Source: Leucoraja ocellata (Eukaryota). From it: a DNA stretch of 64,000 bases. Where the stretch lies: NCBI GenBank assembly GCA_036785375.1, contig JAWMAR010000034.1:11036001-11100000 (forward strand), given 5' to 3'. Shown here one piece after another: positions 13,701-41,975 of the stretch. How positions within the stretch are numbered: the first letter of the stretch is position 1; each line of letters opens with the position of its first letter. A model generated the notes under the pieces. It had not been told where the DNA came from, searched no databases, and worked only from the letters and a program-made list of their open reading frames with translations. A program made the translations under genes and the position numbers.

Positions 13701-14594
13701 TGCAATTCCTTTCTGCCTGTCTCCCACTCCAACCTCAATTAAGACACTTCTTATCTCTTTGACCAACCTTTTAGTCATCTGTCCAAATGGAGTGAAGTGC
13801 TTTGATATGGTTTGAAGCACAGCACACATATTGCTGTTCTAATGGCAAATATTGTGGAACCAGGAATATCAAAGTGTAGATTATTTGGTCTTATCACTGA
13901 AGCATGCTGTACTGGATATCGCAATAATGCATATATTTCAATGTATTCCTTTGATCATAAAATGTATTAAATGACAAGGTTAAAGTCAACAACTCTGACA
14001 CACAAACTTCCTCTTTGACATTTACACTTACAATCCACACAGATAGGCACATCAGTGACAATATATATTATAAGGTACATGTTTCATGCAATTTTTGAGA
14101 CGTCTTTGCCAAACTTTGTGTCCCAATTGAATAGTAAGTAGATTGAAAGGTATTATTTAAACACACAGACTAGAACCAACTTGTCCTTTCCCTTCAACCT
14201 CTATTCCATAACAGTATTCATGACCATATTTTTAAAGAATATGTTACCCACTCCAAACTTAAGAAACAGTTGAAACACAGAGCATTGATTGATTCATAAT
14301 TATTTCTTCACAAACCCCATGGTAGAGGTTGGTAAAACTTTGACCTGGAAATGCTTTCCCTCTTGGTGTGATAAAACAGAATGAGTCCGGTTCAAGGTGA
14401 CTCGAAATAAACCAGGAAGTTTGAGAAATAATCTGTCATTCGCTGTGTTAAACTAGATCTGACAGATATGTTCTTGAATAATTGTTGGCAGATGTCCTCG
14501 GTTACTAAAATGATGAATGAACGGTGCCTCAAAATCCCAACAATCCATGAAAAAACCTATGAACACTGGGTTTGTTAGAAATATTCCTGTTGAG

Positions 14595-14657
14595 TCACTG
14601 TGCCATGATTGGGTCGGGAAGTTGATCGTCTGATTTCCCGGTTCCTAAGAATGCATG
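14595..14657 (-). CDS. JAML: JAML-like last coding exon
   Basis: cttcttttaattccag acceptor, then [23 protein letters not shown]. It starts with His, as follows YMTM in JAML. Confidence 0.7.
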   Translation of the reverse strand, partial: HAFLGTGKSDDQLPDPIMAQ

Positions 14658-17600
14658 CTGGAATTAAAAGAAGGGAAGTGTAAGAAATGGGCAAGGGCCA
14701 GTAACTATGTAACTAAATCAACGGCATCCTTTCTAGAGTCATAGAGTGATACAGTGTGGAAACAGGGCCTACGATCCAACTTGCCCACACCAGCCAACAT
14801 GTCCCATCTACACTAGTCCTACCTGTCTGCGCTTGGTCCATATCCCTCCAAACTTGTCCAATCCATGTAACTGTCTGTTTCCTAAGCGTTGGGATAGTCC
14901 CAGCCTCAACTACCTCATCTGGCAGCTTGGTCCATACACCCACCGCCCTTTGTGTGAAAAGGTTACCCCTCAGATTCCTCTTAAATCTTTCCCCCTTCAC
15001 CTTGAGCCTATATCCTCTGGTCCTCGATTCCCCTACTCTGGGCAAGAGACTCTGTGCATCTACCCGATCTAATCCTCTCATGATTTTATCCACCGCTATA
15101 AGATCACCCCTCATCCTCCTGCGCTCCAAGGAATGGAGACCCAGCCTATTCAACCTCTCCCTATAGCTCACACCCTCTAATCTTGGCAACATCCTCGTAA
15201 ATCTTCTCTGAACCTTTTCAAGCTTAACTATATCTTTCCTATAACATGGTGCCTAGAACTGAACACAATATTCTAAATGCAGTCTCACAACATCTTATAC
15301 AACTGCAACATGACCACCCAACTTCTAACTTGGCATTGATTGAAGCATGTTAATTACAATAAATAACCATACACTTCCAAGACAATATTTCAGGAATAAA
15401 TTCCAGATTACCTTGAGTAAGAGAATGATTAAATTGTGGTTGTTCTGTTGTTGCACAACCTCACCATCACTGGTACATTTTGAAGTATGAATGAAGTGAT
15501 GATCTAAGCAATCTTACCCAGCGAGTCATCTTCCATTCTATTGTCACAACACCAGAAACTTGGGAATTGGTATAAAATTGAACTCCAAATCTTGCTGCCA
15601 CAAATAATAGCTAAATCACACTAAAATAATGAAAGATGGAAAAGTGTGAAACCTCCGAGGGCTCTAATTATTGGAACAAGTAATTAGTGGAGCATGTGTT
15701 TGGCTGAATCACTGGCCTGGATTATTGATGAAGACATTAGTTTGGATCCCATTGTGAGAGTCAGCAAACTGAAATTCAAGTGATTAAATAAATCTGGAGT
15801 AAAGGATGATGATGATGATCAGATTGTTGTAAAATCCACCTGGATCACTCACTGTTCTCACCCAGTCTGCTTCGTAACTCTCCTCTCAATGGCTTCACAA
15901 ACCTTCCACATGGAGGCATTTAGGGATGGACACAAACTTGCCATCTACAACCCAGGAACGAATACATTAAAAATAAATGTGCAAATGCATATAAAATATA
16001 CGCCAAAATGGTACAGAAGGTAGAGGCCAGGAATACAAACACGAGATGAACCAAAGGATGATGTCAGAAAAAGACACAAATTGTTGGAATAACTCGATGG
16101 GTCAGGCAGCATCGCTGGAGAACATGGACAGATGACATTTCCAGTCAGGAGCCTTCTTCAGGCTGGGAAGAAGGGTCCTGACCTGAAACGTTGCCTAGCC
16201 ATGTGTTCCAAAGAGGCTGCCTGACCCGTTGAGTTACTCCAGCACTTTGTGTCAGTTTTGCAAACCAGCATCTGCAGTTACGTGTTTCCTGATGATGTCA
16301 GAGATAGTTCAGGGGAATTGGCTGGTCAAATGGAGTGTCTGAGGCTCTGTCCAACAAGAGGGCAGTAAAATGTGTTGTAAACTATTGCATAAGCACTGAT
16401 AAGAGAATAATGGTATCTAATGCAATTACTTGTGGTAATTGGAGTTAGAGCACATGAGATCAATATCTTGCTTCACTCGGAAATTTGAGGATTCAAATTC
16501 TACTCTAGGGTGAATTGTAAATTCAGGCCAGCATTCCAGTTCAGTACTGTGGGAGTGCCATCTTCTGGATGAGATGTCAAACTGAAGCCCCATTTGCTGC
16601 TCAGATAGCTACATGTTCTTTAGTAGAAACTCAGGAAACATATCCCTGGCAACCTATGTACCAAACATAGAATGCCTGATAATGATCACATTGCTGTTCT
16701 GTGAGCTGCCTGTGAATAGGTGTCTGTTGCATTTTCTAGAGTAAAAGTGACCATTGACAAAGTGTACTTCAATGGCAGTGAATTCATCTGTAATGTCTTA
16801 TTACTGTAAAAGGCAGCAAAGATATGCAAAATCCTTCACATTCTTTAATGAAATATCCATCCATGTGGTCGAAGAGGCTTGCACCTGCCCTACCATTCTT
16901 CACTATTTAATTTAGTTTAGAGATACAACATGGATACAGGCCCTTGGGCTTCCCGAGTCCGCAACAACCATCGATCACCTGCTCACACTAGTTCTATGTT
17001 ATCCCACTTTCTCATCCACTCCCTAAATACTTGGGGCAATTTTACAGAGGCCAATTAACATATAAACCTGCAAGTCTTTGGGTTCTGGGAAGAACCGGAA
17101 CATCTGGAAAACACCCATGCAGTCACAGGGAGAACATGCAAACTTCACACAGGCAGCACCCGAGGTCAGGATCGAACACGGGTCTCTGGCACTGTCAGGC
17201 AGCAGCTCTACCCGGTATGCTGCCCTGCTGCACTGTTCGATTTATATTATTTCATTATTTATATCTATTTCTATTATTTTTTATATACATTTCTATTATT
17301 TTTATAAAAATAATATTTACCTAAAAAAAAATCGAATTTCTTTTAATGTCCTAATGATGTTTCTTTCTCTGGTATTTCTCACACTAGTTAGTATTTACAT
17401 TGTGGACACTGTAATCCCCTGCTAGAAGCATGGGGATTCCTGGCCTCGGGAACTAGTTCATTGAAGGAGTTTGAGTGGGAATGGGATACATGAGGTTGTG
17501 CTCGGTATCATTTGGTAAAATATCTTCACACAATTTGTGTACTCAAGGGATGGATAACATTAGTGAGCCTCCCTCTATTATGTGTGGGAAGGAACTGCAG

Positions 17601-20600
17601 ATGCTGGTTTAAACCAAAGATAGACACAAAATGCTGGAGTAACTCAGCGGGACAGGCAGCATGACGTCACCCATTCCTTCTCTTCAGAGATGCTGCCTGT
17701 CGCGTTGAGTTACTCCAGCATTCTGTGTAGATCTCCCTGTATCATGTTTTCTAATTACATCAGGCTAAAGGAATGGCACCCCCAATAATCTTACCATTGT
17801 TACATAGATTTCATTTTCATCATCTTTTGGTTCCGTATTGTCCTGTCCGTCCACAGGTGCGGTTGCCGTGTTGCCTGGAAGTGCTGGTTGCCTTGTCACA
17901 ATGACATACGTGTTTTGCTCCTGGTTGTTGGTGAATATATTTAATTAATCAACTGACTTTTCTTCCTCCAAATTCCAAATTAATTTCTACAGGTCCTAAC
18001 TTATTTTGTTTATTGAACCAAGACAGAATGGAACTTGATAACATTCGATGCTGAAGCTCATTCACAAAGAACGGGTGCTTTGGTGAGGTAGCCAAGCCTT
18101 TGGCAGCAGGGCAAGGCAATGTTCAGGAGATACAGATAAAGCTATACAACAACTGTCTCTGAATCACGCTAGTTTCCAATGCCACCCAATATCTAAGGAA
18201 GTCACGCAAATGTGATTAGTGAACAGCTCTGGAAAACTCAGGCTAGAAACTGGCTACAAATACAATGATATTATTCAGTGAATAAGCCACTGTACTTGAT
18301 TATATTATCATAGCAGAATAGTTAAGGGGAAAATACCATTGGACTAAGAAAGCCTACATTTTTATTTCCTCACTGGCCCGAGTTCTAGTATTGTAAACCT
18401 GGTAGCGAACCATTCCTGTAGCAGTTCGACTCAAATATGTGAAGTCTATCATTGAAGCAAGCGCAGGCCTGTAAGATGCTTATTGTCCCTCTTGTACCCT
18501 AACATTATCATTTAAATGCTCTTTCACTAATGATCCGTCAGCAAACGATAGTGACCATTATTCCCACAAACCACCCATCTCATTCTAACTCAACCCAATC
18601 TCACGGGAGTCGGTCTCTAGATTCCCATCTCTTTATGGAAGGCTAGCACTTCCACTGACATATGATATATCATTATCCCACACAAATATATTCTGCTGAC
18701 ACTAAAGTCATCGCAAATATTTGTCACTCCATGTCACATTTGTTTACAATAGATTATAAATATATAACCTCGATCTCTGTAACTCTGACTTTAGTTGAAG
18801 TAAAATTCTGGACTTGTGTATAACTCTCAGTTTATTTCTTTTCTGGAACAGCAGTGCCCCTGAAGTGTTGAACAGAAACATGGAACATAGTGAGACAGGG
18901 TTTTGGGAATGTGTATGGGCATACCTGCCCTCATTGCTGAAGCATTGTTTAAGTGTTGCAAGTGTAGACATGTTGCTGAGACCACACTTGTCTGTAGTTA
19001 TGGCTGTCACACTGTAAGGAGGATGTGTACCCTGGACAGGGTGCAGAAATGATTCACAGGGGACATTACTTAGCCAGGGATAGTGGTGAAGGCAGATACG
19101 AAAGTGACATTCTAGAGGTTTTCCGATGGGCAGGGACAGAGGGACATGGATCACATGCAGAGCTGATTACTTTAATCTAGCATTATGTTCAGTACAGACA
19201 TAGTGGGCTGAAGGGCTCGGCCTTTTTACCCAGGAAAGACGAAGGCTGAGGCACGACGTCATGGAACAACATCAAATTAACAGAGGCATGTATAGGTTAG
19301 ATAGCTATGTCTTTCCCATGGTAGAGGTGTCCAACGTAGAGGGCATGCTTAAGGTGAGGGAGAAGGTTTCAGGTGGATCTGAGGATACATTTTTCATATA
19401 AAGAGTAGTTGGTATATGGGATGAGCAAGGTGGTGGAGGCATGAACCTGAGAAGGTGGTGGAGGCATGAACAGTTAAGCAGCATCTGTACAGGTATTTAA
19501 AGCTAAAAGTAGCAGGTTATACGTAGCAGGGCATAGAGGGGGTAATAGAATTAGAACATACATTGAACCTAGAAAAGTACAGCACAGGGGCTTGGCCTTC
19601 AACCCACCATGATGCTAATCCAAACTAAAGTTAACTGTTTGCATATGGTCTTTATTCCTTTATTCCCAGCATATCCACATGCCTATCTAAATACTTCTTC
19701 AACATTGCTATCTGTTTCCACCACTTTCCCAGCAACACCTTTCAGGCACCTATCATTTTCTCAAACTTTCCTTGAGAGTTTCTTGTTTAGTTTAGAGATA
19801 CAGCACGGGAACAGGCACTGCTGCTCACCAGGTCCGCGCCGACCAGCGATCCTCGCTTATTAACACTATCCTATACGTACTATCCTATACGTTACATTTA
19901 CCAAGCCAATTTACCTACATACCTGTACGTCTTTGGAGTGTGGGAGGAAACTGAAAATCTCTGAGAAAACCTACGCGGCCACGGGGAGAACGTGCAAACT
20001 CCGTACAGACAGCATTGTAGTTGGGATCGAACCTGGGTCTCCAGCGCTGTAAGGCAACAACTCTACTGCTGCGCCACCGTGCCGTCATGGAAGATTCCTC
20101 TCATTGATCGGGATCATAATAAATCTAGGCTTAAAACAGCCCTTACCTTGACACCATGAAGGCCACCTGGATCATTCCTTGCAGACACATCGTAGGGTCT
20201 GCGGAAAAAATGTTCAGCATTATACATTGTTCAACAGGTGGAACGTTGCAATTCCGTTCACATCTGTCTCCAGAAACACTTTACCTTTGATCCCTTGGTG
20301 CTGTTCTAGATGAACACTTCCGTTTGGTTACAAGAATTATGGAGAGCACAACAAGGAGGATGGAGACCACAGCTGTCGTACTTATGATGAGACCCAATGG
20401 CATCACTTTCTCAGTCTGGTGAACGTGGATGGCTCGTGACTGCTTGCCATCTGTAGGAGGTAGAAGAGGGTAAAAGTCAGAGAGTCCCTCTCGGCTAGAC
20501 ACCTCTACCATGGGAAACAGACATTGCTATCTAGCCCATCTATGCCTCTGTAAATTTGATATTGTTCCATCATGTCGCCTCTCAGCCTTCGTCACTCCAG

Positions 20601-23600
20601 GGTGAATTTATAGCACTGGACGTGCAACGGTGGCCAAGATATTTAGATGTAAGAAGAGAAAAAATGATCAGAATAACCATGACCAATTCACTCTTTAATG
20701 ATCAATGATTTAACTCCACCCCGCAGAGGTGCCGTTTAAACTGGGCGGTCGTTTCACGGAACACCTTCGTTCAGCCTGCCTGAACCAACCTGATCTCCCT
20801 GTTGCTGGACACTTTAATTCCCCGTCCCATTCCCACACAGACCTTTCTGTCCTCAGTCTCCTCCATTGTCAGAGTGAAGCTAAACGCAAATTGGAGGAAC
20901 AGCATCTCATATTTCGCTTGAGCAGCTTACAGCCCAGTGGTATGAATATTGACTTCTCTCACTTCAGGTAGTCCTGGCATTCCCTCTCTCTCTCTATCCC
21001 TCCCCCACCCAAGTCACACTAGCTCCTCATTTTCACCAACAAACAGCTAACAATGACCTCTTTGCTTTATCATTGTTACTTTTTTACATATTTTTCATTC
21101 ATTGTTCTTTCTCTCTCCACATCACCATCTCTATCTCTCGTTTCCTTTATCCCTAACCAGTCTGAAGAAGGGTCTCGACCCGAAACATCACCCATTCCTT
21201 CTCTCCAGAGATGCTGCCTGTCCCGCTGAGTTACTCCAGTTTTTGTGTCTACTTTCATATTTGTTCCTATTTTTGCTTCTCAAGAGATAATTTCCTTCCC
21301 TTTCACCTAATGTACAGAATCCCAAAAGATCGCTCCCTCCCCATTTAGTTCTTTTGTATTGAATTGGAACATACCAATCCCTCGTTTGCTTATGTCCCAC
21401 CATGTAGAATACCAAACTGTTTACATTCAATCCCACTGTGTACAGTTGCAGTGGTTGTGTTTATACCTTCACACAAAACCATTAGAAGAGTCTTGCTTCG
21501 GTGGACTTTGTTCGACAATCTAGGGATGCGCAGATCACAGATGAAGCTGCCATTGTCAGAGCATGTCACATTGGTTATGAGAATGGAGCCATTTTTCTTG
21601 CTGATGTCACCTGTCCACTTCAGCCTCTGGGTGAACCTGTTGTCCTGCATCACCACACTGTGGTCTTGGAGGTAAAACAAAATCTGTGTTGGAATAAAGA
21701 AGGAAAATAACTGAAAGGAAACAGTTCTCCATCAATTTCACCAATGAAAATTGCACTTGTTAAATGCAGAGTTGGATTATCCCTGCCCTATCTTTATTAA
21801 CAATTCCCAGAGCCGATACTTTTTTAATATGATATCAAATAGATGCGACACTGACAGGTCCTGTATGTGTTGTCTATTTCTAATATCGCTGATATTGCCT
21901 TCTTGAACAGCACGAATGCATATATCAGTGGTGCACAGTGTAGCAATGTAGAGTTTACACCCAGCAATTACAAAAGATGATGATTTGTTTCCAAATCCGG
22001 ATGATATGTGACCTGGATGGGAACTTGCAGCGGATGGAAAACTCATGTACCCGCTGCCAACTCTTCCTGGATGGTAAAACATGCGGGAATGGGAGGTCCA
22101 GTGGAAACAGATGTAGGTGCTGTACTGTATTTCATAGGTGGCAGCAGAATGGAGTTGACCGGGATAAATAGATCAGCCATGATTGAATGGCAGAGTAGAC
22201 ACGATTGGCTGAATGGCCTAATTCTACACCTTTGTCATTGGCCTTTCAAGTGGATTAAATCAGTGCACTGTTTTCATTGGTGAGGGTTGGCAGAGGCAGC
22301 AGGGTTTACACTCACCACATTCTCTGCAATGCCATTATAAGGGGTGTACAACCATTCCAGCTTGATGTTGTGCCGATCAGTGTGTTCGTGGTAGTCAAAC
22401 ATGCAGTCTAATCGTAGATCCATTCCCTGTTTCACAACCAGGTACTCTGGGGTATAGATACCAACAGCTGAGACTGGCCAGACATCTACAAGGTAAAATA
22501 AACCATCTGAACTTAGACATCGATACACAGTGGCACACAGACAGTGGCAGACAGGCAGACAGACAGCGACAGACAAGCGACAGACAGAGACAGACAGGCA
22601 GACACACAGACAGCGACAGACAAGCAGACAGACAGTGACAGACAGAGACAGATAGGCAGACACACAGACAGTGACAGACAGACAGTGACAGACAGTGACA
22701 GACAGACAGTGACAGACAGACAGACAGACAGCGCAGAGTCAAGTTGAGCTGTAATGTCCATCAACGAGGATGCTGACCAGCTATCTGTAATTCTATTTCC
22801 AGGCCACTTAAGCGTTTTGATTCAAGTTCAGCCAGTGACTCACTCAAGGATATCTCTTACTCTATATATAATAACCAAAACATGGTTAGCTTTCATCTCT
22901 TTCCATCCCCAGATACTGGATATACTGTATTAATGCACAATTATCACTGTAATTCACTCCTAAATGTTTATGAAATTATACAATGTAGACAAAAATGCTG
23001 GAGAAAATCAGTGGGTGAGGCAGCATCTATGGAGCGAAGGAATAGGTGACGTTTTGGGTCGAGACCCTTCCTCAGACTATATGCATAAAGCCCTGAGCTT
23101 CTCCGTTACATTCTGATTGGTAATACATTGAAGAGTATTTGTTATTAACAAGCAGCTTCATTTCAAGTTATCTGTTATAATCCACTGTTATAATCCACTT
23201 GTTTAACCTGATTCTAGCTGATAACTTTTCATCATTCTATGTGTGAAGCAGACAAACACCAACATTATATCCAGTAGCCCAGCCCCAGATCTCCAGGCAT
23301 AAACCCCCCGAAGCTTCTTTAGATTCTAGCCTCTGGTCTTTGATGGACATACTTGCAATTCCAGAGCATTGATGCAAAGTATTTTTTGAAGTGTTGTCAC
23401 ATTTCTCCCAGGGTCTGATAAATGACATCTCACTCTATGTAGCCAAACAACCATTGCAACTTTAATCTTGGGGAGTTTAATTTTGCTAACGTGTCTATGA
23501 TATGGTGTTTGGTCACAGACCTGTGAAAGACCATATTAACCACATCAACAACAGTACAATCCTCTTTATTGTTCTTCTAAAAATTCTATGAAATGAGTAA

Positions 23601-25872
23601 AGAGAATTAGTCTTGTACAAATTGGGACTGGCTTGGTGTACTTATTATTTAATTGAGTGTCAGCTTGGGGTGGCCATGCCACCAGTACAGGAAGAAACAG
23701 AGACAAACTCTAAAGTGGTGTTAGAAGCAGATACATTCGCAATGTTGAAGAGACATTTAGACAGGTACCTGAACAGGAAAGGAATAGAGGGATATAGATC
23801 AAGTGCGTGGTAGTTTAATTTGGTGTCATGGTTGCTGCTGACACGGTGGCTTTAAGGGCCTGTTCCTGCGATGTACTTTGCTATATGCCTTTTTCTCAAT
23901 AGAATTTAAAGGCAGCTGAAATCTCCTTACATAGACCGTAAGTTTAGTTTCCAAATAAAGCTTTCTTTGAAGAAATATAATCACTCCTTGTTTTAACCTG
24001 AAGTACTTATTCACATTAAAAGTTAAATTGCTGTGCAGCGAGCTGGCTGTTGTTGGTAACATTCAGGTGCATGCAATGGAAACTGCAGGTGGTTTGTGGT
24101 TGGGGGAGAGGAAGGGATTTTGTGAAGTGATTTCCCCTTTATTGTAAATTACTGCTGCGGCTCTGCAGTAAAGTGTTCCACTGTATATGCTCAAAGTGGC
24201 CACACAATTACAATTGAGTTAGGATTTCAGTTCTGCAGAGACATGGGATTGGCTGGGTTGGTTTTCCCTGGAACAGAGGAGGCTGAGAAGACCAATTAGA
24301 GGTATTCAAATATATTAGTGAGATGTATAGGATAAATAATAAGAATCCTTATTTTCCACAGTGGGATTGTCTCAGGCAAGAGGGCATGGGCTTAAGGGGA
24401 GTGGCGGGAGAGTTTGAAGGGATTTGAAGGGGGAATTCTCCCATACAGAAGGCAGTTGAAATCAGGATCACTCTGAGAAAGGGGTGGAGGCAGGTACTGT
24501 CACAGCTAAGAATCATCTAGACAGGCGCATTAATTGGCAAGGTATAGAAGGCTATCAAGCTAATCCAGGTAACAGGGATTAGTATAAATTAAAGGTAGAC
24601 ACAATTACTGGAGAAACTCAGTGGGTGCAGCAGCATCTATGGAGCGAAGGAAATAGGCAACGTTTCGGGCCGAAACCCTTCCGGGTTTCAGCCCGAAACG
24701 TTGCCTATTTTCTTCAGGGTTTCGGCCCGAAACGTTGCCTATTTCCTTCAGGGTTTCGTCCCGAAACGTTGCCTATTTCCTTCGCTCCATTGATACTGCC
24801 GCACCCACTGAGTTTCTCCAGAAATTTTGTCTACCTTCGATTTTTCAGCATCTGCAGTTCCTTCTTAAACATTAGTATAGATTAATGCAGCAGTCAATAT
24901 GGATGTAGTGGGTCAGAGCACTTGCTTCTGTATTGCAAGACCCTAAGACTACCACTGGAAAATCAGATGATCTAATTTTGGTGTGGAGACCAGTTACTGT
25001 AGTTCAGAAATACTTCATTTGTCTCCTGAGGTTGGAAAATATAAAGCATTAATGCAAGTTCTTTCTTTCTTCTACTTCTGCCTGGAGTGTGGTGAGCACA
25101 GGCTGATGCTGGGAAGCTGAGATTTCTCTGGCCTGCTTGACTTCATGCCATAGTGGCAGCTGGTTCTAAACTTCCTACTCGACTGTGCCTGGCATCACAC
25201 AAGGTGGTCATTGACCCGAGACCTGTCATGGACCTGAAACCGTACCTCTATTACCCTCTCCGCAGACATTGCCTGACCTGTTGAGCATGTCGAGATTTTT
25301 CTGCTTTTATTTCAGATTGCCAGCATTTCCAGGTTTTGTTTGCAGATTTCCAGCATCTGCGGGTTTTTTCCCTTTACACCTCATTTCCCGCTGTGCTTCC
25401 GGGCTGAAGTGGAGCCGTGGCTGAGAGACACTTGAAGCTGGAGGTAGTTGGCTCACACGATTACAGGTTGATGCTGAGGAATTCTCAGTAGGAACACAAT
25501 GTGCAGGTTAATGGTTATCATAACCTCCATACCTCAATTAAGGTTGCCAGCTCTTAAAGATTGTTCTGGAATCTCCAAGATTTAAACATTAGTCATTTAG
25601 TAAATGACCAGGGGAAAAAAAGGTTTATTTTACTATTATTCATTGAAAACGTAAACATTTGGGTTATGGTTAGTGAAAGCCTGTTCGATCGGTCAATAGT
25701 CTGAAGTTTGTTTGAAGTTATCCAAATTAATGGCAATGCATCCTAAGCACTAATCATGGGACCAGCGTATATATAACTCAGCATTCCACTATCTCTACTT
25801 TCAATAGACACAACACTTACCACTGAATATGAGAATCGTGTGTAGGAAGAGCAGTCCTGTTCTGCTAAGCAT
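14595..25872 (-). CDS. JAML: JAML-like (junctional adhesion molecule-like / MPZ-family) single V-set Ig type I membrane protein, 281 aa, 7 coding exons
   Basis: Exons 25872-25821, 22485-22316, 21683-21467, 20450-20285, 20198-20147, 17920-17795 and 14657-14595 are all GT-AG and phase-consistent (846 nt). The product has a signal peptide, a V-set domain (C...W...DNGSFIC), a TM segment and a tail with IYVTM|H, like JAML TYMTM|H. Confidence 0.8.
14733..15327 (-). mobile_element. CR1 LINE 3' fragment in the last JAML-like intron
   Basis: [24 protein letters not shown]...[11 protein letters not shown]. Confidence 0.9.
17795..17920 (-). CDS. JAML: JAML-like cytoplasmic exon with tyrosine motifs
   Basis: EQNTYVIV...[10 protein letters not shown], 126 nt, phase 0-0, gtaag donor. 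Confidence 0.8.
20147..20198 (-). CDS. JAML: JAML-like cytoplasmic exon
   Basis: [18 protein letters not shown]; ttttttccgcag acceptor, gtaagg donor; phases fit. Confidence 0.8.
20285..20450 (-). CDS. JAML: JAML-like stalk and transmembrane exon
   Basis: [24 protein letters not shown] followed by the basic stop-transfer TKRK; cctacag acceptor, gtaaag donor. Confidence 0.9.
20730..21252 (+). mobile_element. Penelope-like element 3' fragment in a JAML-like intron
   Basis: LGGRFTEHL...HFNSPSHSH...[21 protein letters not shown], then the terminal repeat with a hammerhead-like core at 21162-21192. Confidence 0.85.
21467..21683 (-). CDS. JAML: JAML-like Ig V domain, second half-exon
   Basis: ILFYLQDH...[35 protein letters not shown]...VLCE; phase 0 in, phase 1 out. 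Confidence 0.9.
22316..22485 (-). CDS. JAML: JAML-like Ig V domain, first half-exon
   Basis: [30 protein letters not shown]...[16 protein letters not shown]; ttgtag acceptor, gtgagt donor. Confidence 0.9.
22535..22732 (+). repeat. (GACA)n-type microsatellite
   Basis: Direct inspection. Confidence 0.9.
25821..25872 (-). CDS. JAML: JAML-like leader exon ([17 protein letters not shown])
   Basis: Acceptor ctctctgcag 3 nt before the ATG; hydrophobic leader; phase-1 gtaagt donor matches the next exon. Confidence 0.8.
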
Positions 25873-26843
25873 TATCTGCAGAGAGGACAGGAGGTTATAG
25901 ACAGTCGATTCAACACCTTGTAATTATAAAACTTAAATCTAATACAGTGCTTCACAGAAGTGATATCAAACAAAACATAATCACTTCTGGACATGCTAGG
26001 AGAGGCAACTAGGTTGGTCAAAGAAGTAGTTTTAACAAGCATCTTAAAGGAGAAAGTAGAGGGGGTGGAGAGATGAAGTGGAGTATTGCAGGACTTGGGC
26101 CTGAGGAGCTGAAAGCCACTGAAGGTGTTCAAAGGGAATGAGGGATCTGTGTGAGTCTCCAGGAGTGCACGGGCCATAGAGTGCTGGACAAGGTCACAGA
26201 GCCAGAGAGACCAGCATCATTTAGTAGGGTCAGAAAACAAGGGTTAAAGGGTTAAAACTGAAATGAAGCTGGGTTTTTGGTTCAATTCATTTCTACACTC
26301 ATTCTGTCAGTCTGTCCAGTCAATTGAAAATCTAATTCACCATTAAACAAGCCCAACAGCAGCGTCGGACACTGATGAGAAGCCTTTTTAAAGAGGAGGA
26401 GGGGAAGTATTTTCACGTTTTAAAATTCTTCTACCTTCTGAATTAACACTTTCTAGAGAACTGTAGAGTAGATAATATGCTCACAATTGCACAAATCACT
26501 CCTTAATGTTGGGATGTGGTCAGTTTAGACTTTAAAAAAAACACAGATTTTCAAAAGAATCTTAAACTAAGTATACCTTTGCATTAAACTTGTGATCTAC
26601 TTCATTCTTTCATTGTAAATGTTCACCCAGTGTTGATAATTTATTGTTCCCTTGTTCGAATTGAAGAAGTTGTTCTGTCCAATCACTGTTACAATTCTCT
26701 CTTGGCCAGTCTCACCCCAGCCACCTTCAGCAAACTCATCCGACACGCCACTGGGTGTACCCCAACTTCATCATTCCCCCCCATTCCACTGTTGTACATT
26801 TCTGCAAACGCATCCAACCCGGTAACCTCTGGTTTTTCTTCTG

Positions 26844-27001: not shown

Positions 27002-27314
27002 GCAAAACACCAAGTACTGGAGGAACTCAGCGCGAGGATCTGGTAAGGAATGAATGGTGAGGTTTCAGGTCGGGACCCTTCTTTAGAACGAGTCTGAATT
27101 CAAATTTGAATTAGTCAAAGTCTAAAGATGGATCCTGTCCAAAAACGTGGCCTCTCCATTTCGTCCTCAGTTGCTGCCTGACCCCTGGGTTCCTCCAGTA
27201 CTTTGTGTCTTGAACTAAATTAGAAACTTCTGTAATTAAAACCGAAGTCTCTGACCATGAGATGATCTTCATGAATAATGTTTCTTTAATGTTTCAGAGC
27301 AAGGAAGAACTTAC

Positions 27315-27530
27315 TAGCAGTTGATGACTCCACCAAAGATCATGCAGTAGAACGGCAACAATCCACTTGTGTTCAATCCCCCGCTGGGCCAGCTGCTGTG
27401 GGCTGTGTGCTGCGTGACAACCTTCTCTGTGTTCCTCAGTACCTTGATTCTCATCTGCAAGGTAGCCAATCGTGTTACTGTGCTTCCGTTACTAGTTCCT
27501 GAGTCCAGGAAACCACACTGAAGAAGTGAA
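27315..27530 (-). promoter_or_regulatory. Putative non-coding first exon and promoter of the JAML-like gene
   Basis: gtaagt donor at 27314 on the minus strand. ETS cores (CGGAAG, AGGAA), RUNX (AACCACA) and CCAAT cluster at 27465-27520. The leader exon has an acceptor, so an upstream exon is required. Confidence 0.4.
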
Positions 27531-34566: not shown

Positions 34567-34995
34567 TCATTCTTCTTTGTCAGCTGTGATGAATGCCCCA
34601 TCCATAAGCTTTCCCTTGGCCTTCAAGTTCCTCATGAAGTCCCGTGGTCCTTTGCCTTCCAAGGCTGACGGGTATTTGTAGGAGCCTCCAATTCGGTCCC
34701 ACAGTGTGAAGTACTGCCCATAGTTATAATCAAAGTACAGGTGGTGATCTGTGTGATGGGCCGACCCATTAATGATGCCCTCAAGAATTCTGGGCACTCT
34801 GTAGTCCCCATCGTGAATGGACACCGTCCAGATGTTGACAAAGACATAGAGACCCAGGTAGACCACTTTGTGCAGCGGGAAGAGGAATGGGTAGATGTGG
34901 TATGGGATACTCTGCATGAAACCATCCACTGGGTGAAAGGCATGACTTGCAAATGGCGTCGGAAGCTTCCAAATATGGTGGGGCTTGTGCAAGTG
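34567..34995 (-). CDS. SC5D: SC5D last coding exon
   Basis: [10 protein letters not shown]...ADKEE-stop. Confidence 0.97.
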
Positions 34996-37900
34996 CTAAA
35001 GACAATACCAGAGGTTTAAAGAATCCACACATTAAGTGCTCATGTTAAAATTAAGAAACATTTGATATTACTTACAATACATTTCAAGCCCATCCTCACT
35101 ATGACTAATCAACTAACAGATAAAGCCGGGTCGATGAAATCATGGAATGTCATTGGCGTTTTATTAAATAAATATAATGCAAGGAGAATGAAGTCAAGAC
35201 CATATGTTCAGGCAACGCATTCAATGATCATTCTCAAACATCCACACATGAACATATGGATTTGCAGTGCCAGGGGCAGCACCATTGGGAGGTTTGGAAC
35301 TAATGGGGGAGTTGGCACAGGTACAACAGCACAAATGTGCTGGATTATGCAATGAAATAGCAGCTAGGCATTTGAACACCTTCTACATATGCATTTCTCA
35401 AATGTGTGCTAACGGCCATTTTCAGATCTCTACAACCAAATAAAACCTGTCACCCAACCCCAAGCTTCTTACTTTATAGAGGAGCCTGTGATGAAGAAAC
35501 CGATGGATCCAGTAGATACACATGTCTGTGAAGAAGAGGAAGGAGATCATACTGAGCACCACTCCAAACCAACCTAAAAAGAAAGAAGGTTGGAGTTTCA
35601 GTACAGAGATCACTCAGCCCTTCCAGATTACACAACAGCACTCGGGGTCACAGTCACAGATTTCTGATTTGGTGCTGGTGGGTAACTATGCAAACATTAA
35701 ACATTCTAATTCTCCACAGTCATTGTGCAGTTATGGTAACTTGCATCTGTACACCACAGTTAACATCTAAAACATTCAAAGATGCCTCCAAGACGATTAT
35801 AATACTTTGGCAGTGAAGCTGGAAAAAGTGGTATGTTCTAATATTGGACACGCAAGCTGGTTCCTTTGAACTTCTGGAAAAGAGTGGTTTTAAGTAAATC
35901 CCGATCTTAAGGCATTCATAGGCATAACAAAATCTAGCTTAGTTTAGTTTTTATTGTCATGTGTACTGAGGTAGAGTGAAGAGTTTTTGTTTTTACAGTA
36001 AAACAAGAAAATAGGAGCTGGAGCTAGCTGGCCATTTGGTTCCTCAATATGATCATAGAAACATAGAAATTAGGTGCAGGAGTAGGCCATTCGGCCCTTC
36101 GAGCCTGCACCGCCATTCAATATGATCATGGCTGATCATCCAACTCAGTATCCCGTACCTGCCTTCTCTCCATACCCCCTGATCCCCTTAGCCACAAGGG
36201 CCACATCTAACTCCCTCTTAAATATAGCCAATGAACTGGCCTCAACTATCCTCTGTGGCAGAGAGTTCCAGAGATTCACCACTCTCTGTGTGAAAAAAGT
36301 TCTCCTCATCTCGGTTTTAAAGGATTTCCCCCTTATCCTTAAGCTGTGACCACTTGTCCTGGACTTCCCCAAAATCGGGAACAATCTTCCTGCATCTAGC
36401 CTGTCCAACCCTTTAAGAATTTTGTAAGTTTCTATAAGATCCCCTCTCAATCTCCTAAATTCTAGAGAGTATAAACCAAGTCTATCCAGTCTTTCTTCAT
36501 AAGACAGTCCTGACATCCCAGGAATCAGTCTGGTGAACCTTCTCTGCACTCCCTCTATGGCAATAATGTCCTTCCTCAGATCATGGCTTATCTGTCCTTG
36601 TTCTCCAACCTCTTCTGTGCCAATTCCCCACATTCTTCAATTGAAAACATTTAGACAATTTTAGAACTCAGTAGGTTAGACAGCATCTGTGGAGAGAATG
36701 GACAGATAACATTCCAAGTCGGGACCCTTCTTCAGACAGATGGAATTGGGGGGGAGCGAATACTGGAAAAGAGAGTTGGGGGCAAAGTGAGGCCTGGCTA
36801 GTGATGGGTGGATACAGGTGAGGAAGAGGCGTGTGGTGATTGGCAGATGGGTGGAGATAGTGACAAAAACTAGAGGTGAAAAAGTATACATCTACATCCA
36901 TTTAAATTCCTCCGGCTAAATAGAGTAATAACCATCTATTTAAATTGATCCAGCATCTGCAACCTTGCAGAGTAGAACAATTTCAGAGATTTTCCATCCA
37001 CTGTGAAAAATATTCTGACACATCTCACTTGTAAACGACCACACTTGCATCTTACAACACGTTGGAGACTCTCCACGTGGAGGAAACATGGCAACAGACC
37101 CTTCCTGTTCTCAACCAAACCAAACTAGTAGGTTTAAAATTGCAGCCCTTCATTTCTAGTTTGCTGTTTGAGGATGGATTTCAGTGCAAGAAGATGAAAT
37201 AAAAGTGACAAATATTCAGCAGCCAAGTGGCAACACCACCAGGTTACCCACTTCCCAACTCTGTTGCACTTCGTTCTCAACACTTACCGTAAGGGGAATC
37301 CTCAATGTTATCGTACAATTTGCTGTAGCCACGGATTTCTGCAAAGAACAGTCCAACCGTTGGAATACTTATCCATGGAAGTGATTGCATAGCATACTTT
37401 ATTTCTCGTCGCACTTGATTCTATGGAGAGATAAAATAAGTTCATTCCAGGTGACCTCAATATTGCAGCCGTTTGGGCAAGGGAGATTTATCTTACAGAA
37501 TTCACTTGCCAAAATTTGAGTATAATAACATTTATGTAAAAAAATTACAGAATATGTAAAGGAAGTAAATAGATAAACTTTTGTTAAATGCAGATGATGT
37601 GGCTTTGATATACAGAAAATTGCATGACAGACAGTTTGAGGAATGCAACCCCCCCCCCCCCCATAATGCAAACGTTGCCTGTCACTCTTTCACTAACCTG
37701 TGTGCACTAGCAGTGTGCACTTCAATTTCGTTGGCTCACTAACATTGAGAAGCACCTGAACAACACAAAATATTATCAAATAGTGGTGCAGGGGAAGGTG
37801 CAGCAAGCCTAGATGCCTACGTCAGTCTCTCTCTCCTCAGACTGTGATGTTTCATTCTGCTTCAATAACAAAATATTTCCACATTCCAATCTTTCATGTT

Positions 37901-39204
37901 TCTCTTATATTATTTTGCCCGCAAAATAGCAACCACAAAAGCCAGTGAACATAATTTACTTTGAAGGCAAATTCTCCTGGATATTAATCTTCAAATAAGT
38001 TAAACTATAACTTTTCAAATCTCTCTTGATGCCCTTTTACACTCATACAATAAAGTAGTACAAATTGAATTAACATCACAGGCAAGGCAACACATACAAA
38101 GATAAGAATTTGCCATTGCAAGGAATAAAATAACTGCTTCACCTTTTAAATGCTTAGAAAGTTCAGCATATCCCCAACAGCCCTCAATAATTCCTACGGA
38201 TGCACTGTAGAAAGCATATCGGGATGCATCACGGCATGGTTTGGTTAACAGCTCTATCGAAGACAGCAAACCAACTCCCCTTCCATTGACTCCATATATA
38301 TCACCCTGCCTCGGCAAGGCCAGCAGCATAATCAAGGACCAGTCTCACTCTGGTCTGAAGAAGGGTTTCGGCCCGAAACGTTGCCTATTTCCTTCACTCC
38401 ATAGATGCTGCTGCACCCGCTGAGTTTCTCCAGCTTTTTTGTGTACCCTCACTCTGGTCACTCTCTTCTCCCTTCTCTAAGGAGGTACAGATGTTTGTAA
38501 ACGTATGCCTCCAGATTCAGAGACAGTTTCTTCCCAGTTATTATCAGGCAACTGAACCATCCTATCACCAGCTAGAGTGTGGTCCTGTCCTTTCATCTAC
38601 TTCGTTCCAGATATTTTAACTAACCTTAATCAGATTTCATCTTGCACTAAATATTGTATGCTGTATCCTTTAACTGTACACTGTGGACGGCTGGATTGTA
38701 ATCATGTATAGTATTTTCTTTGACTGGATAGCAAGCAACAAAAAGGTTTTCACTGTACCTCGGCACACGTGACAATAGTAATCTAAAATAAACTAAATCA
38801 ACTTTGGAAATGAGAGAGGAGGAGGCCATTTAAAACTGGATCAGTGAATCCAACTATGAGTGGTTTACATGCAGAGTACTCAATACCCAATACTGATTCG
38901 TGGTGTAAAACTCAAATCAAAACAGGTTGTCACATATTTCCATAGAAAAGGTTCTATGGAACATCCATAATAACACCCATTCAGTAAGACTTACTGGCAA
39001 ATATTGTGGATGTTTCTTCAGTGTATGATCAAAAATAAGATAATAGCTCAACATTCCAAAGAACAGATATATAGCGGTGGCTCCCAGGTTGGTTACAATG
39101 AGGAGACTGATTATCTGGCGTAGAGCACCACCCTCTGGCCAGGAGCTGGGATACACATACGGTGTGAAAACGTGGTCATCTGCGTAGCGTAGTACAATGT
39201 CCAT
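34567..39204 (-). CDS. SC5D: Lathosterol oxidase (sterol C5-desaturase), 290 aa, 4 coding exons
   Basis: Exons 39204-38995 (210 nt), 37420-37288 (133), 35573-35473 (101) and 34995-34567 (429). His boxes HRFLH, HKPHH and HTDHH are present, plus [11 protein letters not shown] and [15 protein letters not shown]. Confidence 0.97.
35473..35573 (-). CDS. SC5D: SC5D coding exon 3
   Basis: [34 protein letters not shown]. Confidence 0.95.
36055..36580 (-). mobile_element. CR1 LINE 3' fragment in an SC5D intron
   Basis: [21 protein letters not shown]...YGEKAGTGY, intact ORF end and tail. Confidence 0.92.
37288..37420 (-). CDS. SC5D: SC5D coding exon 2
   Basis: [44 protein letters not shown]; GT-AG boundaries. 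Confidence 0.95.
38352..38385 (+). ncRNA. Minimal type I hammerhead ribozyme-like motif in a short Penelope-derived insert
   Basis: GGT-CTGAAGA-A-GGGTTTCGGCCC-GAAAC-GTT-GCC has both core boxes, stem II, palindromic AACGTT stem III and a short stem I. Confidence 0.6.
38995..39204 (-). CDS. SC5D: SC5D first coding exon
   Basis: gccATGG Kozak context; [19 protein letters not shown]...KHPQYLP; acceptor 8 nt upstream; gtaagt donor. Confidence 0.95.
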
Positions 39205-41975
39205 GGCAGAACCTGCCAATAAAGAGAAGAGGTTGTAGTAGTTCATCACAAATGATGATTGCAAGTCTACTGTGTGTTTCAGAGCTACATTGACAGAATG
39301 CCCTGGTGCATGTGGCCTGTCCTGCTTAATAAACCACTGCACAATGTCATGCAGTGGCTTGGACAGACACACAATAGCCACAGACTGGTCTCATCTGAAG
39401 GATTACCTTTAAAACATTAACACTTTTAAAAGAATGGCAACCATGCATCAATTACAGGTGCCCCGAGGCTGCCTGAGGATTTTCTCACAGTAGGCCAATC
39501 TATTTATTATGGGCATTTTTACAACTGACAGTTTCAAAATTATGTTAGGTGATGTACATTGAATGTTACCCAACTTAGTGTAGTTACCTTGCATGATAGA
39601 TCTCAAACATTGACCAGATTATCAGACCAGTAATCCTGAAATAATCATTCAGATCCCGCTATTATAGATATGGTACCTATTGTAAATTCACTAAACCTGA
39701 AAACAAGTCACATTAAAGATGATTATGTAACCACAGCTCTCACAAAACTAATACGTTGATCTCAATCCAACACCCACAGCAATATGGTTGACACTTAAAA
39801 GCCTTTGAAAGAGCCCTTGAACTGATAATTATAAACCATTTGAATTCACACATTAACTTTACATATCCTCCTCAGGAATATAACAAGGATTCAAGTACCC
39901 ATCACCCTGATTGAGCATGGGAAACCGTGGCCAGACTGGTCTAGTGGCAGGTGAAGAAAAAACCAACATGAGGATAAACTCCCTTGACATCATCCACACT
40001 AATATATTTACTGTCAATACATCTCTTGTGACAACATTGGTAGGAACAACAACCATAATCTTCGCAGAGACACAGTCTATATTCACACTGAAGATACCTG
40101 CCATATATGGAGCTAAATCGGATTGAACAGAACAGAGCAGATCTGGTAGATCAACAAACACTAGGCATCCATTGGGTGCCATGAGATGCCATCATTACCG
40201 GTAGAATATCGTTCATCATGAGCTGCACTCGCCACCAATACAGGCAAGACAAGGAGCACAAGAAGCTTCTATCAAGAGTAGCGATGAACTTGTCTGATGC
40301 ATCACCTGATACAACCACAAGAGTAAATCAGAGACTCAATGTTCTGTACTGCAACTTGTGGGATCCATTTCCAAAACATAAGCTAAAACATAACACTACT
40401 AACACACCTCAATACCTGTACTGGAATAAGTCAACCCACGTCATTGGCAGCCTACGCACCAGCTTAAACACATGAGCTGCAGTTACAACAAAATTACATG
40501 GTTAAAAATAAGTGAGGAATAAAATATTTGACAGAACACCATAATTGTTTGCAACAAAAACTTGCATTGATACAACTTATATAAAAGGTAGTAAACTGTC
40601 CTAAAATGGGTTTATTCATCAAACATAGTGAAAGCACAGGAAGCAGATAATTGGTTTACAATGCCTACACTGACCTTTCAAAAGGGCTCTGCAATTAATT
40701 CCAGTCCTCCACATCTCCCTTAACATTATGGCTCAATTGGTACACTCACATCCGAAGTCAATAGATCATGGATTCAACCCTCTCCGAAGGCAAATCTATC
40801 ATCATAGTGCTACACCAAGGGAAAAATTAAACTGGGGTCTCATTTCCTTACCACACAGTAGGATGCCATATCTGCCCATCGAGTACATGCTGGCTCAGGG
40901 CTATCTTATTAATTATCCCTGTAGCATATTCTCCCCACATTCCCTAAAATTACCCCTAGATCCTACCACTCACCTTCACAGATCAGGCCATTTACACTGG
41001 CCAAATAACCTGTCAATGTGCACATCTGTGGAATGTGGGAGGTAACCAGCACACCCTGGGGAAACCTTTCACTCACAGAGACAATATGCACACAGTGCAC
41101 ACACAGCTCCAATGTCAGGAGTGAATCCAGGTCACTGGAACTGCAAGGCAGCAGCTCTCTCATCTGCATTACTAAGCACACTCTCATCACTGTCCAGGCT
41201 GCCAAATGATCCCAACCCACTGTTATGACGAGAATAGCCCTTGTAATGCTCTTTGTGAAAAATGTATTCATATCTCCTGTAAATTTCTCCCCATTCACCA
41301 AAAGCATCTAGTTTTAGAATCTTCCACCTTGGGGAAATACTGTGATTATCTCTCATATAGTTTAGTTTAGAGATTCAGCACAGAAGCAGGCCCTTTGGCC
41401 CACTGAGTCCATGCTGACCATCGATCATCCATTGAATGTTATCCCACTTTCGCATTTCACTCCCTACATACCAGGGGCAATTTACTGAGGACCAATTAAC
41501 CTACAAACCCGCACGTCTTTGAGATGTGGGAGGAAACTGGAGCACCCGAAGAAAACCCATTCAGTCGCAGGGAGAACATGCAAATTCTACACAGAGAGTA
41601 CCCAAGGTCAGGGTCGAAGGCGGGTGTCACACTGTGACGCAGCAGCTCTACCCGTTGTGCCACCTTATGCCCCTCATAACTTTATAAACCTCTAGGAGGT
41701 CACCCCTCAGCCTTCGGTTTAAACCAGCATCTGCAGTTCCTTCCTACACACCCCTCAGCCTGCATTCTAGTGAGAATAAATCCTGCCTATCAAAGCTCTC
41801 TGTATAAACAGAGCCCTTCATTCCAGGCAACATCCGAATGAATCTCTGCTGCACTCTCGCCATTGCGACCAAAAAACTGTACAAAATACCCCACGTGCAG
41901 CCTGACCAATGATTTGCACAGCTGCAACATGATACCCCAACTCATATACTGAATGCATTGGCCTATGAAGAGAAG

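What the first reader, a model, noticed from the sequence alone, without database searches (positions are those of the whole stretch)
14595..25872. Single-Ig JAML-like receptor: MPZL-type ectodomain joined to a JAML-type signalling tail
Seen: a complete 281-aa gene with one V-set domain. The signal peptide runs straight into it ([11 protein letters not shown]), and it splices in phase 1 to the TM exon over a 1-kb intron largely filled by a Penelope fragment, leaving no room for a second domain. Known: mammalian JAML has two V domains and a YMTM PI3K motif; MPZ/MPZL2/MPZL3/SCN2B have one split V domain, and MPZL2 begins LWPIAA|VEIYT. Inference: this may be the pre-duplication form of JAML, or an unnamed chondrichthyan co-stimulatory receptor linking the MPZ family to JAML.
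Basis: partly seen in the sequence, partly recalled or inferred. Interest (0 to 1): 0.75.

Follow-up and report, generated by a model that had tools for sequence, protein, structure and literature searches.

The report
Ancestral one-domain JAML in a skate
This skate gene is spliced into a cell-surface receptor with one antibody-like domain and is most likely the shark-and-ray version of the immune co-stimulator JAML; birds, reptiles, fishes and the platypus also have one domain, so the textbook two-domain JAML is probably a late invention of mammals.

Summary
The 281-aa, seven-coding-exon, single-V gene is real. RNA reads from a related species join the V exon straight to the transmembrane exon (3 reads). 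It is very likely the JAML orthologue, not an MPZL ectodomain on a JAML tail. It lies directly upstream of SCN2B and SCN4B, as human JAML lies upstream of SCN2B. Its exon phases equal human JAML minus one V pair, including the intron after YxTM. Its V domain groups with JAML at 100/99 support, and true MPZL2, MPZL3 and MPZ lie elsewhere in this genome. One V domain is not shark-specific: chicken, turtle, crocodile, platypus, echidna, lungfish, gar, bowfin, paddlefish and char have one; the placental-type sequences have two. Those two domains form one clade, sister to the monotreme single domain, so the duplication followed the monotreme split (marsupials not seen). The YVTM PI3K motif and the Lys matching human K54 are invariant in 22 of 22 shark and ray sequences. 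CXADR binding, expression site and signalling are untested. RefSeq gives most shark/ray copies other names. Ten literature searches found no account of this history.

The parts
27315..27420 (-). Upstream exon, probably 5' UTR (5' end not fixed); GT donor at 27314, splices to an acceptor 3 nt before the ATG
   Evidence: Matches the N-terminal extension of transcript-derived P0005, but in two blocks out of frame and without that Met
25821..25872 (-). Coding exon 1: ATG and most of the signal peptide (52 nt, phase 1)
   Evidence: identical to residues 1-17 of the little-skate protein
22316..22485 (-). Coding exon 2: end of signal peptide, first half of the V domain (Cys45, K59-L-E61-W62); 170 nt, phase 0
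21467..21683 (-). Coding exon 3: second half of the V domain (Cys123, D124-x-R126, extra Cys115 and Cys145, three N-glycan sequons); 217 nt, phase 1
   Evidence: Pfam V-set E 3e-8; best PDB sequence hit JAML 3mj6; RNA reads join it to exon 4
20741..21262 (.). Penelope-like retroelement fragment in intron 3 (endonuclease end and terminal repeat)
   Evidence: 74-80% identical to a longer copy whose ORF has a weak GIY-YIG match (E 0.0016, below cut-off)
20285..20450 (-). Coding exon 4: stalk, transmembrane helix, basic stop-transfer stretch; 166 nt, phase 2
20147..20198 (-). Coding exon 5: first tail exon; 52 nt, phase 0
   Evidence: slight RNA depth over it in run X18, too low to be listed as a joint
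17795..17920 (-). Coding exon 6: two-tyrosine tail exon, Y224xxV near its start and E-x-Y258VTM at its end; 126 nt, phase 0
   Evidence: Y224, V227, E256, Y258, V259, T260, M261 invariant in 22 of 22; same layout as the 87-nt human JAML exon
14595..14657 (-). Coding exon 7: last 20 residues and stop

Best explanation
This is a spliced skate gene for a one-V-domain membrane receptor that is most likely the orthologue of JAML in its ancestral form, predicted to bind a partner on another cell and then recruit PI3K through its YVTM tail motif. Shown here: gene structure, splice from V exon to TM exon, neighbours, tree position, conserved residues. Inferred from mammalian JAML: the charged face of the V domain (K59/E61 and D124/R126, matching human K54/D56 and E117/R119) would bind CXADR or a relative on epithelium; clustering would lead a tyrosine kinase to phosphorylate Y258; the p85 SH2 domains would dock and start PI3K-AKT signalling in leukocytes; Y224xxV would be a second docking site. 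The second V domain likely arose by tandem duplication of the two V exons (phases 1-0-1 allow this without a frameshift) after monotremes split off. Odds: orthology about 0.93, late mammalian duplication about 0.85, p85 binding about 0.75, CXADR as ligand about 0.45.
For: Position: SCN2B and SCN4B exons follow downstream on the same strand, then a hepsin-like protease exon on the other. Human SCN2B, JAML, MPZL3 and MPZL2 lie in that order, all on the minus strand. Exons: human JAML phases 1,0,1,0,1,2,0,0 with the last intron after YMTM; skate 1,0,1,2,0,0 with the last intron after YVTM; MPZL2 1,0,1,2, MPZL3 and MPZL1 1,0,1,2,0, SCN2B 1,0,1. Tree of 65 V domains: 13 shark/ray plus 25 JAML-group rows form one side of a branch at 100/99, unchanged without three long rows. 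Placental-type D1+D2 100/99, sister to monotremes 97/86; D2 as an ancient outside lineage rejected, p 0.014. Marmot JAML's best hit in this genome is exon 3. A tail profile from 14 bony-vertebrate JAMLs scores 22 of 22 shark/ray proteins (E 2e-6 to 0.03) above every MPZ/MPZL/SCN row (best E 1.3; partly circular, cut at YxxM). K-x-D/E-W: 13 of 13 shark/ray, 18 of 19 amniote JAML domains, 0 of 27 MPZ/MPZL/SCN. K54D abolishes JAML dimers and adhesion to CAR (PMC2600739, passages).
Against: The tree has 122 columns, no outgroup and long JAML branches. AU tests do not reject grouping with SCN2B/4B (p 0.22; 0.075 without long rows) or with MPZ (p 0.07). The skate V domain's top three pairwise scores are MPZL1-type rows (30-35% identity). 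Foldseek on a modest model (mean pLDDT 52.5; V strands mostly 60-83) ranks SCN2B, MPZ and MPZL1 first, and JAML is not among the rows shown. Synteny holds on one side only: SC5D, not MPZL3, is upstream; MPZL2/MPZL3 lie 10.4 Mb away on the same contig. The PxxP that follows YMxM in mammals (PMC7982423, passage) is absent. The Lys is missing in 6 of 6 coelacanth, lungfish and ray-finned rows. One study placed CAR binding on the membrane-proximal domain (Zen 2005, as cited in PMC2600739). Splice support from raw reads is 3 reads in 1 of 4 runs, other species, tissue not given.
Confidence: 0.85

Rival explanations
1. It is the JAML orthologue, but CXADR binding and T-cell co-stimulation are later amniote or mammalian functions. 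In skates it would be a homophilic or differently partnered adhesion receptor that still signals through PI3K.
For: V-domain identity to amniote JAML is only about 30%. The C-strand Lys is absent in ray-finned fishes, lungfish and coelacanth. Sharks and rays have two private invariant cysteines, C115 and C145. The PxxP after YxxM is missing.
Against: K59, D124, R126 and both tail tyrosines are invariant in 22 of 22 while mean column identity is 45%, and they match mammalian D1 positions.
Confidence: 0.4
2. A shark/ray-specific tandem copy of SCN2B or an MPZ-family gene that gained a YxxM tail on its own and only resembles JAML.
For: AU does not reject sisterhood with SCN2B/4B or MPZ. Fold and raw identity lean to MPZ, MPZL1 and SCN2B. 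RefSeq names most copies MPZL2, MPZL3, P0-like or beta-2-like.
Against: It would need convergence in position, in three tail-exon phases with the intron after YxTM, in a two-tyrosine exon, in K-x-D/E-W, in the N-x-S stretch and in loss of NPP, plus loss of true JAML. Free trees give 100/99 for JAML.
Confidence: 0.06
3. Two V domains were ancestral, and non-placental lineages each lost one.
For: No marsupial, amphibian, chimaera or jawless sequence was seen, and the single-V proteins outside skates are gene predictions that I did not check against DNA.
Against: 13 of 13 non-placental proteins scanned have one V-set stretch and 3 of 3 placental-type have two. D1 and D2 are 48-62% identical within a species and cluster together; D2 outside is rejected, p 0.014. 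Gene conversion between D1 and D2 could mimic the clustering but not the many single-V genes.
Confidence: 0.05

Closest known systems
JAML / AMICA1 of placental mammals (human NP_001091996; mouse ectodomain PDB 3mj6)
   Same: Position upstream of SCN2B on the same strand; non-coding first exon; split V exons; tail exon phases 2,0,0 with the intron after YxTM; proximal Yxx(V/I); K-x-D/E-W and C-D/E-x-R; best PDB sequence hit (E 1e-16).
   Different: One V domain instead of two; YVTM not YMTM; no PxxP after it; extra C115/C145 pair; upstream neighbour SC5D instead of MPZL3; ligand and expression untested.
Single-V JAML predictions in RefSeq: chicken XP_040546240, platypus XP_007655660, echidna, turtle XP_074833210, crocodile XP_019398616, lungfish XP_043936809; unnamed gar, bowfin, paddlefish and char proteins
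   Same: One V domain, one TM helix, two-tyrosine tail ending in YxTM; same side of the 100/99 branch.
   Different: About 30% V-domain identity. Ray-finned fishes, lungfish and coelacanth lack the C-strand Lys. In gars the gene follows MPZL2 and MPZL3 directly (fused prediction P0197).
MPZL2 / MPZL3 / MPZL1 / MPZ
   Same: One V domain split over two exons, phases 1,0,1,2; similar fold and 29-36% identity.
   Different: NPP after the second Cys, no tail YxxM, fewer tail exons; true MPZL2, MPZL3 and MPZ exist elsewhere in this genome; clade with MPZL2 or MPZL3 rejected.
SCN2B / SCN4B sodium-channel beta subunits
   Same: Tandem neighbours, same V fold (top Foldseek hit), same V exon split.
   Different: Both are present as separate genes next door; short tail without YxxM; phases 1,0,1 only in human SCN2B.
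CD28-type co-stimulators
   Same: One V domain plus a YxxM motif for p85. The tail likeness of JAML to CD28 is stated in PMC8404475 (passage); CD28's single V is recalled.
   Different: Different V subfamily and ligand; no CD28 sequence was compared here.

Membership tests
JAML orthologue | Directly upstream of SCN2B on the same strand | tested here: met
   against human coordinates
JAML orthologue | Directly downstream of MPZL3 | tested here: not met
   SC5D is upstream; MPZL2-MPZL3 lie at C34:0.60-0.63 Mb between a weak CD3-like exon and OAF. Read as a rearrangement within the chromosome or contig (inference).
JAML orthologue | V domain groups with JAML in a tree | tested here: met
   100/99; unrooted; SCN2B and MPZ alternatives not rejected by AU
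JAML orthologue | Tail exons in phases 2,0,0 with the intron right after YxTM | tested here: met
JAML orthologue | YxxM p85 motif in the tail | tested here: met
   invariant in 22 of 22
JAML orthologue | Best hit in this genome of a mammalian JAML query | tested here: met
   marmot JAML: exon 3 first of 7 matches, E 2.6e-4; exon-by-exon search, lower bound
Textbook mammalian JAML | Two extracellular V domains | tested here: not met
   one V; also not met by chicken, platypus and others named JAML in RefSeq
Textbook mammalian JAML | PxxP following YMxM | tested here: not met
   YVTM is followed by H/R-A/S-F in most rows
Textbook mammalian JAML | Binds CXADR | not testable with these tools
   no whole CXADR domain was among the session's sequences; only conserved surface residues could be checked
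Textbook mammalian JAML | Leukocyte-restricted expression, PI3K recruitment on ligation | not testable with these tools
   runs carry no tissue label
MPZL2 or MPZL3 | V domain in their clade | tested here: not met
   AU p 0.0072 and 0.018
MPZ/MPZL/SCN2B | NP(P) motif after the F-strand Cys | tested here: not met
   D-L/M-R-I-P-R in 13 of 13 shark/ray rows; NP in all 27 MPZ/MPZL/SCN rows where the motif was read, 0 of 38 JAML-group domains
MPZ / sodium-channel-beta V-set subfamily (broad) | V domain split over two exons, phases 1-0-1, P0-like fold | tested here: met
Classical JAM-A/B/C | V plus C2 domains and a C-terminal PDZ motif (PMC12237671, passages) | tested here: not met
   one V, no C2; C-terminus not conserved across 22 rows

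The most novel reading that the evidence does not exclude
The JAML-CXADR-PI3K co-stimulatory pathway of epithelial T cells dates from the first jawed vertebrates and ran for most of its history on a CD28-like one-domain receptor. Sharks and amniotes kept the CXADR-binding face, ray-finned fishes changed it, and placental (or therian) mammals doubled the domain, which would explain why both D1 and D2 have been tied to CAR binding.
Probability: 0.35. Interest if true: 0.65.

Novelty: new variant of a known kind. Interest (0 to 1): 0.42.

Why it matters
JAML is an immunotherapy target usually described as a two-domain JAM-family protein. These data say it is an MPZ/SCN2B-cluster gene whose one-domain form with a PI3K motif goes back to the shark-human ancestor, and that the second domain is young. 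Natural one-domain versions (chicken, platypus, skate) give a direct test of whether one domain is enough for CXADR binding and what D2 added. It also corrects names: of 16 named shark/ray clusters only 2 are called JAML (the 17th is 'hypothetical'), and the gar, bowfin, paddlefish and salmonid copies are 'uncharacterized', which hides a candidate T-cell co-stimulator from fish immunologists. It is a tidy evolutionary result, not a new kind of system; the single-V proteins already sit in RefSeq under the JAML name for birds, reptiles and monotremes.

Tried and rejected
Laying four contig runs over 14300-26300 was swamped by repeats and showed no usable joint. The run search listed no holder on record as RNA. 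Runs X21 and X3 gave no reads on 20100-20700. A V-set family search of the genome returned 150 scored matches out of 1893 candidates, mostly in large V-gene clusters, and did not bear on a second JAML. A search for the CD3 family PF16680 gave one weak match on another contig. The query for a V exon 120 kb upstream was contaminated by a repeat. The ESM Atlas ranked a JAML cluster first (0.98) but MPZL2 and MPZ at 0.97, so it does not discriminate. No complex was predicted: no whole CXADR domain was on hand, and a homodimer score would not separate the rivals. Rejected: a hidden second V exon; identity with MPZL2/MPZL3 despite the RefSeq names; a shark-only receptor. Three MPZL2-like rows (P0065, P0067, P0071) were dropped from the tree because the cutting rule found no domain. 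The primary JAML papers (Verdino 2010 and 2011, Witherden 2010, Zen 2005, Weber 2014) were not held, so the contact residues in the JAML-CAR crystal could not be checked. A nurse-shark spleen single-nucleus paper (PMC10529500) does not mention JAML or MPZ in its text or in its one held supplement. Look-ups of earlier scan findings gave nothing on this gene.
Full report
Observation. Seven coding exons on the minus strand (25872 to 14595) with GT-AG introns in phases 1,0,1,2,0,0 give an open 281-aa protein: signal peptide, one V-set domain, one transmembrane helix, and a tail of about 90 residues with YVTM at 258-261 (Pfam). Exon 3 is 93% identical to a little-skate protein, so the window is from a skate or close relative. 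That protein and a thorny-skate protein are also 281 aa, and four unnamed contigs of 1.7-1.9 kb encode the whole protein although the gene spans 11 kb, so they are spliced transcripts (inference). Of four runs laid on 20100-20700, X18 gave 4 reads, 3 of which run from the TM exon into the end of the V exon; X22 gave 4 reads with depth over intron bases, X21 and X3 none. A V-domain profile over 264 kb found only exons 2 and 3 inside the gene at E below 1, and a scan for V-like exons in introns 1 and 3 found none. The Penelope piece covers about half of intron 3. An upstream exon ending at 27315 looks non-coding; human JAML also starts with a non-coding exon.

Relatives in sharks and rays. The little-skate protein found 17 clusters among 696 candidates, all from sharks and rays, 236-326 aa, each with V-set as its only Pfam family. 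Names vary: MPZL2, MPZL3, P0-like, beta-2-like, uncharacterized, and JAML in two. In 22 aligned sequences mean column identity is 45%, yet K59, D124, R126, C115, C145, Y224, V227, E256 and YVTM are invariant.

Position. Downstream on the same strand are SCN2B (PDB E 1e-20) and SCN4B (E 2e-11) exons, then a hepsin-like exon on the other strand (TMPRSS4 by position is recalled). In human, SCN2B, JAML, MPZL3 and MPZL2 follow each other on the minus strand (GenBank files in the supplement of PMC10506104). The gene therefore sits where JAML sits. On the other side the match breaks: SC5D is upstream (identified from its fatty-acid-hydroxylase exon; name recalled from the sequence), and true MPZL2 and MPZL3 lie 10.4 Mb away on the same contig, next to OAF. 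MPZ is on another contig. A fused gar prediction shows MPZL2, MPZL3 and a one-V YITM gene in the human order (P0197).

Exon pattern. Human JAML has coding exons of 43, 155, 226, 110, 238, 139, 94, 87 and 93 nt, phases 1,0,1,0,1,2,0,0, and its last intron falls right after YMTM (counted by hand). Removing one V pair gives the skate pattern exactly, with the last intron after YVTM and a second tyrosine near the start of the same exon. MPZL2, MPZL3, MPZL1 and SCN2B have fewer tail exons.

Wider family. A profile search of 1.84 billion representatives gave 477 hits at E 0.001; I examined the best 150. Besides MPZ-family proteins they include one-V proteins with YxTM tails, named by look-up as JAML of chicken, turtle, platypus, crocodile, lungfish and coelacanth (partial), and as uncharacterized proteins of gar, bowfin, paddlefish and char (20 proteins looked up). 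A platypus query added echidna (one V) and wolf, pangolin, marmot and ground squirrel. Pfam counts one V stretch in 13 of 13 non-placental proteins scanned and two in 3 of 3 placental-type ones. No marsupial, amphibian, chimaera or lamprey JAML was identified; most of the 150 hits were not named.

Tree. In 65 V domains (122 columns, LG+C20, unrooted) the 13 shark/ray rows and 25 JAML-group rows form one side of a branch at 100/99, apart from MPZ, MPZL1-3 and SCN2B/4B; this holds without three long rows. D1 and D2 of six mammalian proteins form a clade (100/99) sister to the monotreme single domain (97/86). AU tests reject grouping the shark/ray rows with MPZL2 (p 0.0072) or MPZL3 (p 0.018) and reject D2 lying outside all other JAML domains (p 0.014). 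They do not reject grouping with SCN2B/4B (p 0.22; 0.075 without long rows) or MPZ (p 0.07). Many row labels (those marked x, mam, bird, fish) are my own assignments from sequence. Raw identity is uninformative: the skate domain's top scores are MPZL1-type rows, the sevengill shark's are JAML rows. Foldseek on a modest model ranks SCN2B, MPZ and MPZL1 first and does not list JAML, while sequence search of the PDB ranks JAML first, helped by its two domains.

Motifs. NP(P) after the second Cys marks all 27 MPZ/MPZL/SCN rows read and none of 38 JAML-group domains. K-x-D/E-W on the C strand is in 13 of 13 shark/ray rows, 18 of 19 amniote JAML domains, 0 of 6 coelacanth, lungfish and ray-finned rows, and 0 of 27 others. 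Tail YxxM is in 13 of 13 shark/ray, 11 of 13 bony-vertebrate one-V and 5 of 6 two-V rows (the three misses look truncated); among 25 database MPZ/MPZL/SCN rows two have a YxxM beside the TM helix and none in the tail, though some are partial. A tail-only profile agrees but was anchored on the motif.

Mechanism. From passages read: JAML binds CXADR and starts PI3K signalling in epithelial gamma-delta T cells (PMC8404475, PMC9041367); p85 is recruited to YMxMxPxxP (PMC7982423); K54D abolishes dimers and adhesion to CAR, and one study mapped CAR binding to the membrane-proximal domain (PMC2600739). That the crystal structure shows D1 binding, and that YVxM is a good p85 site, are recalled. The skate protein keeps the K54-equivalent face and the YxxM but not the PxxP. 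The likeliest working is an adhesion and co-stimulation receptor that recruits PI3K through Y258; the ligand and the cell type are not shown.

What is known. JAML is already placed in the beta/MPZ subfamily (PMC10506104, passages). A study of the family's synteny and phylogeny covers MPZ, MPZL1, EVA1 and the beta subunits, with no hit for AMICA or shark in its text (PMC1971062, passages). A review of JAML describes two domains (PMC12237671, passages). Ten searches (listings of 1-25 papers, open-access library only) found no account of one-domain JAML or of a mammalian duplication; subscription papers and unseen supplements may hold one. PMC7916592 and PMC9302484, PMC9866089 (passages) added nothing on domain number in fishes.

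Verdict. Real gene, very likely the JAML orthologue in the ancestral one-domain state shared by most jawed vertebrates. Interest 0.42.

Noticed in passing
window 34570-39390, minus strand: SC5D (sterol-C5-desaturase) exons directly upstream of the gene, where human has MPZL3; MPZL2-MPZL3 sit beside OAF at G000:C34:0.55-0.63 Mb. Suggests a rearrangement that split the MPZL-JAML-SCN2B cluster.
   Followed up: partly
P0001 residues 115 and 145; window 21467-21683: Two extra cysteines invariant in 22 of 22 shark/ray proteins and absent from the other JAML rows aligned; a possible second disulfide near the membrane-proximal end of the V domain.
   Followed up: no
P0009, P0021, P0109: Sevengill shark (one isoform) and smoothhound predictions repeat the tyrosine tail exon, and lungfish JAML has two YITM motifs: independent expansion of PI3K sites.
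   Followed up: no
P0075, P0080, P0131, P0136: Ray-finned fish JAML orthologues are annotated 'uncharacterized'; they keep the two-tyrosine tail but have a shorter V domain without the C-strand Lys.
   Followed up: partly
L023:1093-1413 (G000:C34:11181093-11181413, minus): Half V exon with weak likeness to CXADR (PDB E 4e-6), perhaps CLMP or another CAR-family gene, about 120 kb upstream; a BCO2/RPE65-family gene lies at L020:2924-4060.
   Followed up: partly
G000:C34:283879 and 624213; 9981446 and 11425268; 10936000-10995000: MPZL2 V exon and a SORL1-like exon each occur twice in opposite orientation on this contig, and stretches near the protease gene recur inverted: segmental duplication or assembly redundancy.
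   Followed up: no
P0023, P0026: Two MPZL1-like predicted proteins with two near-identical V domains: possible independent V duplication in the same subfamily, or prediction artefacts.
   Followed up: no
P0006: A transcript-derived skate protein with a different first coding exon before the V exons; no match was shown in the window (output cut at 30 rows).
   Followed up: partly
human JAML record: Human JAML has predicted isoforms that skip the first D2 exon, shifting the frame; no clean D1-only isoform was among those seen.
   Followed up: no
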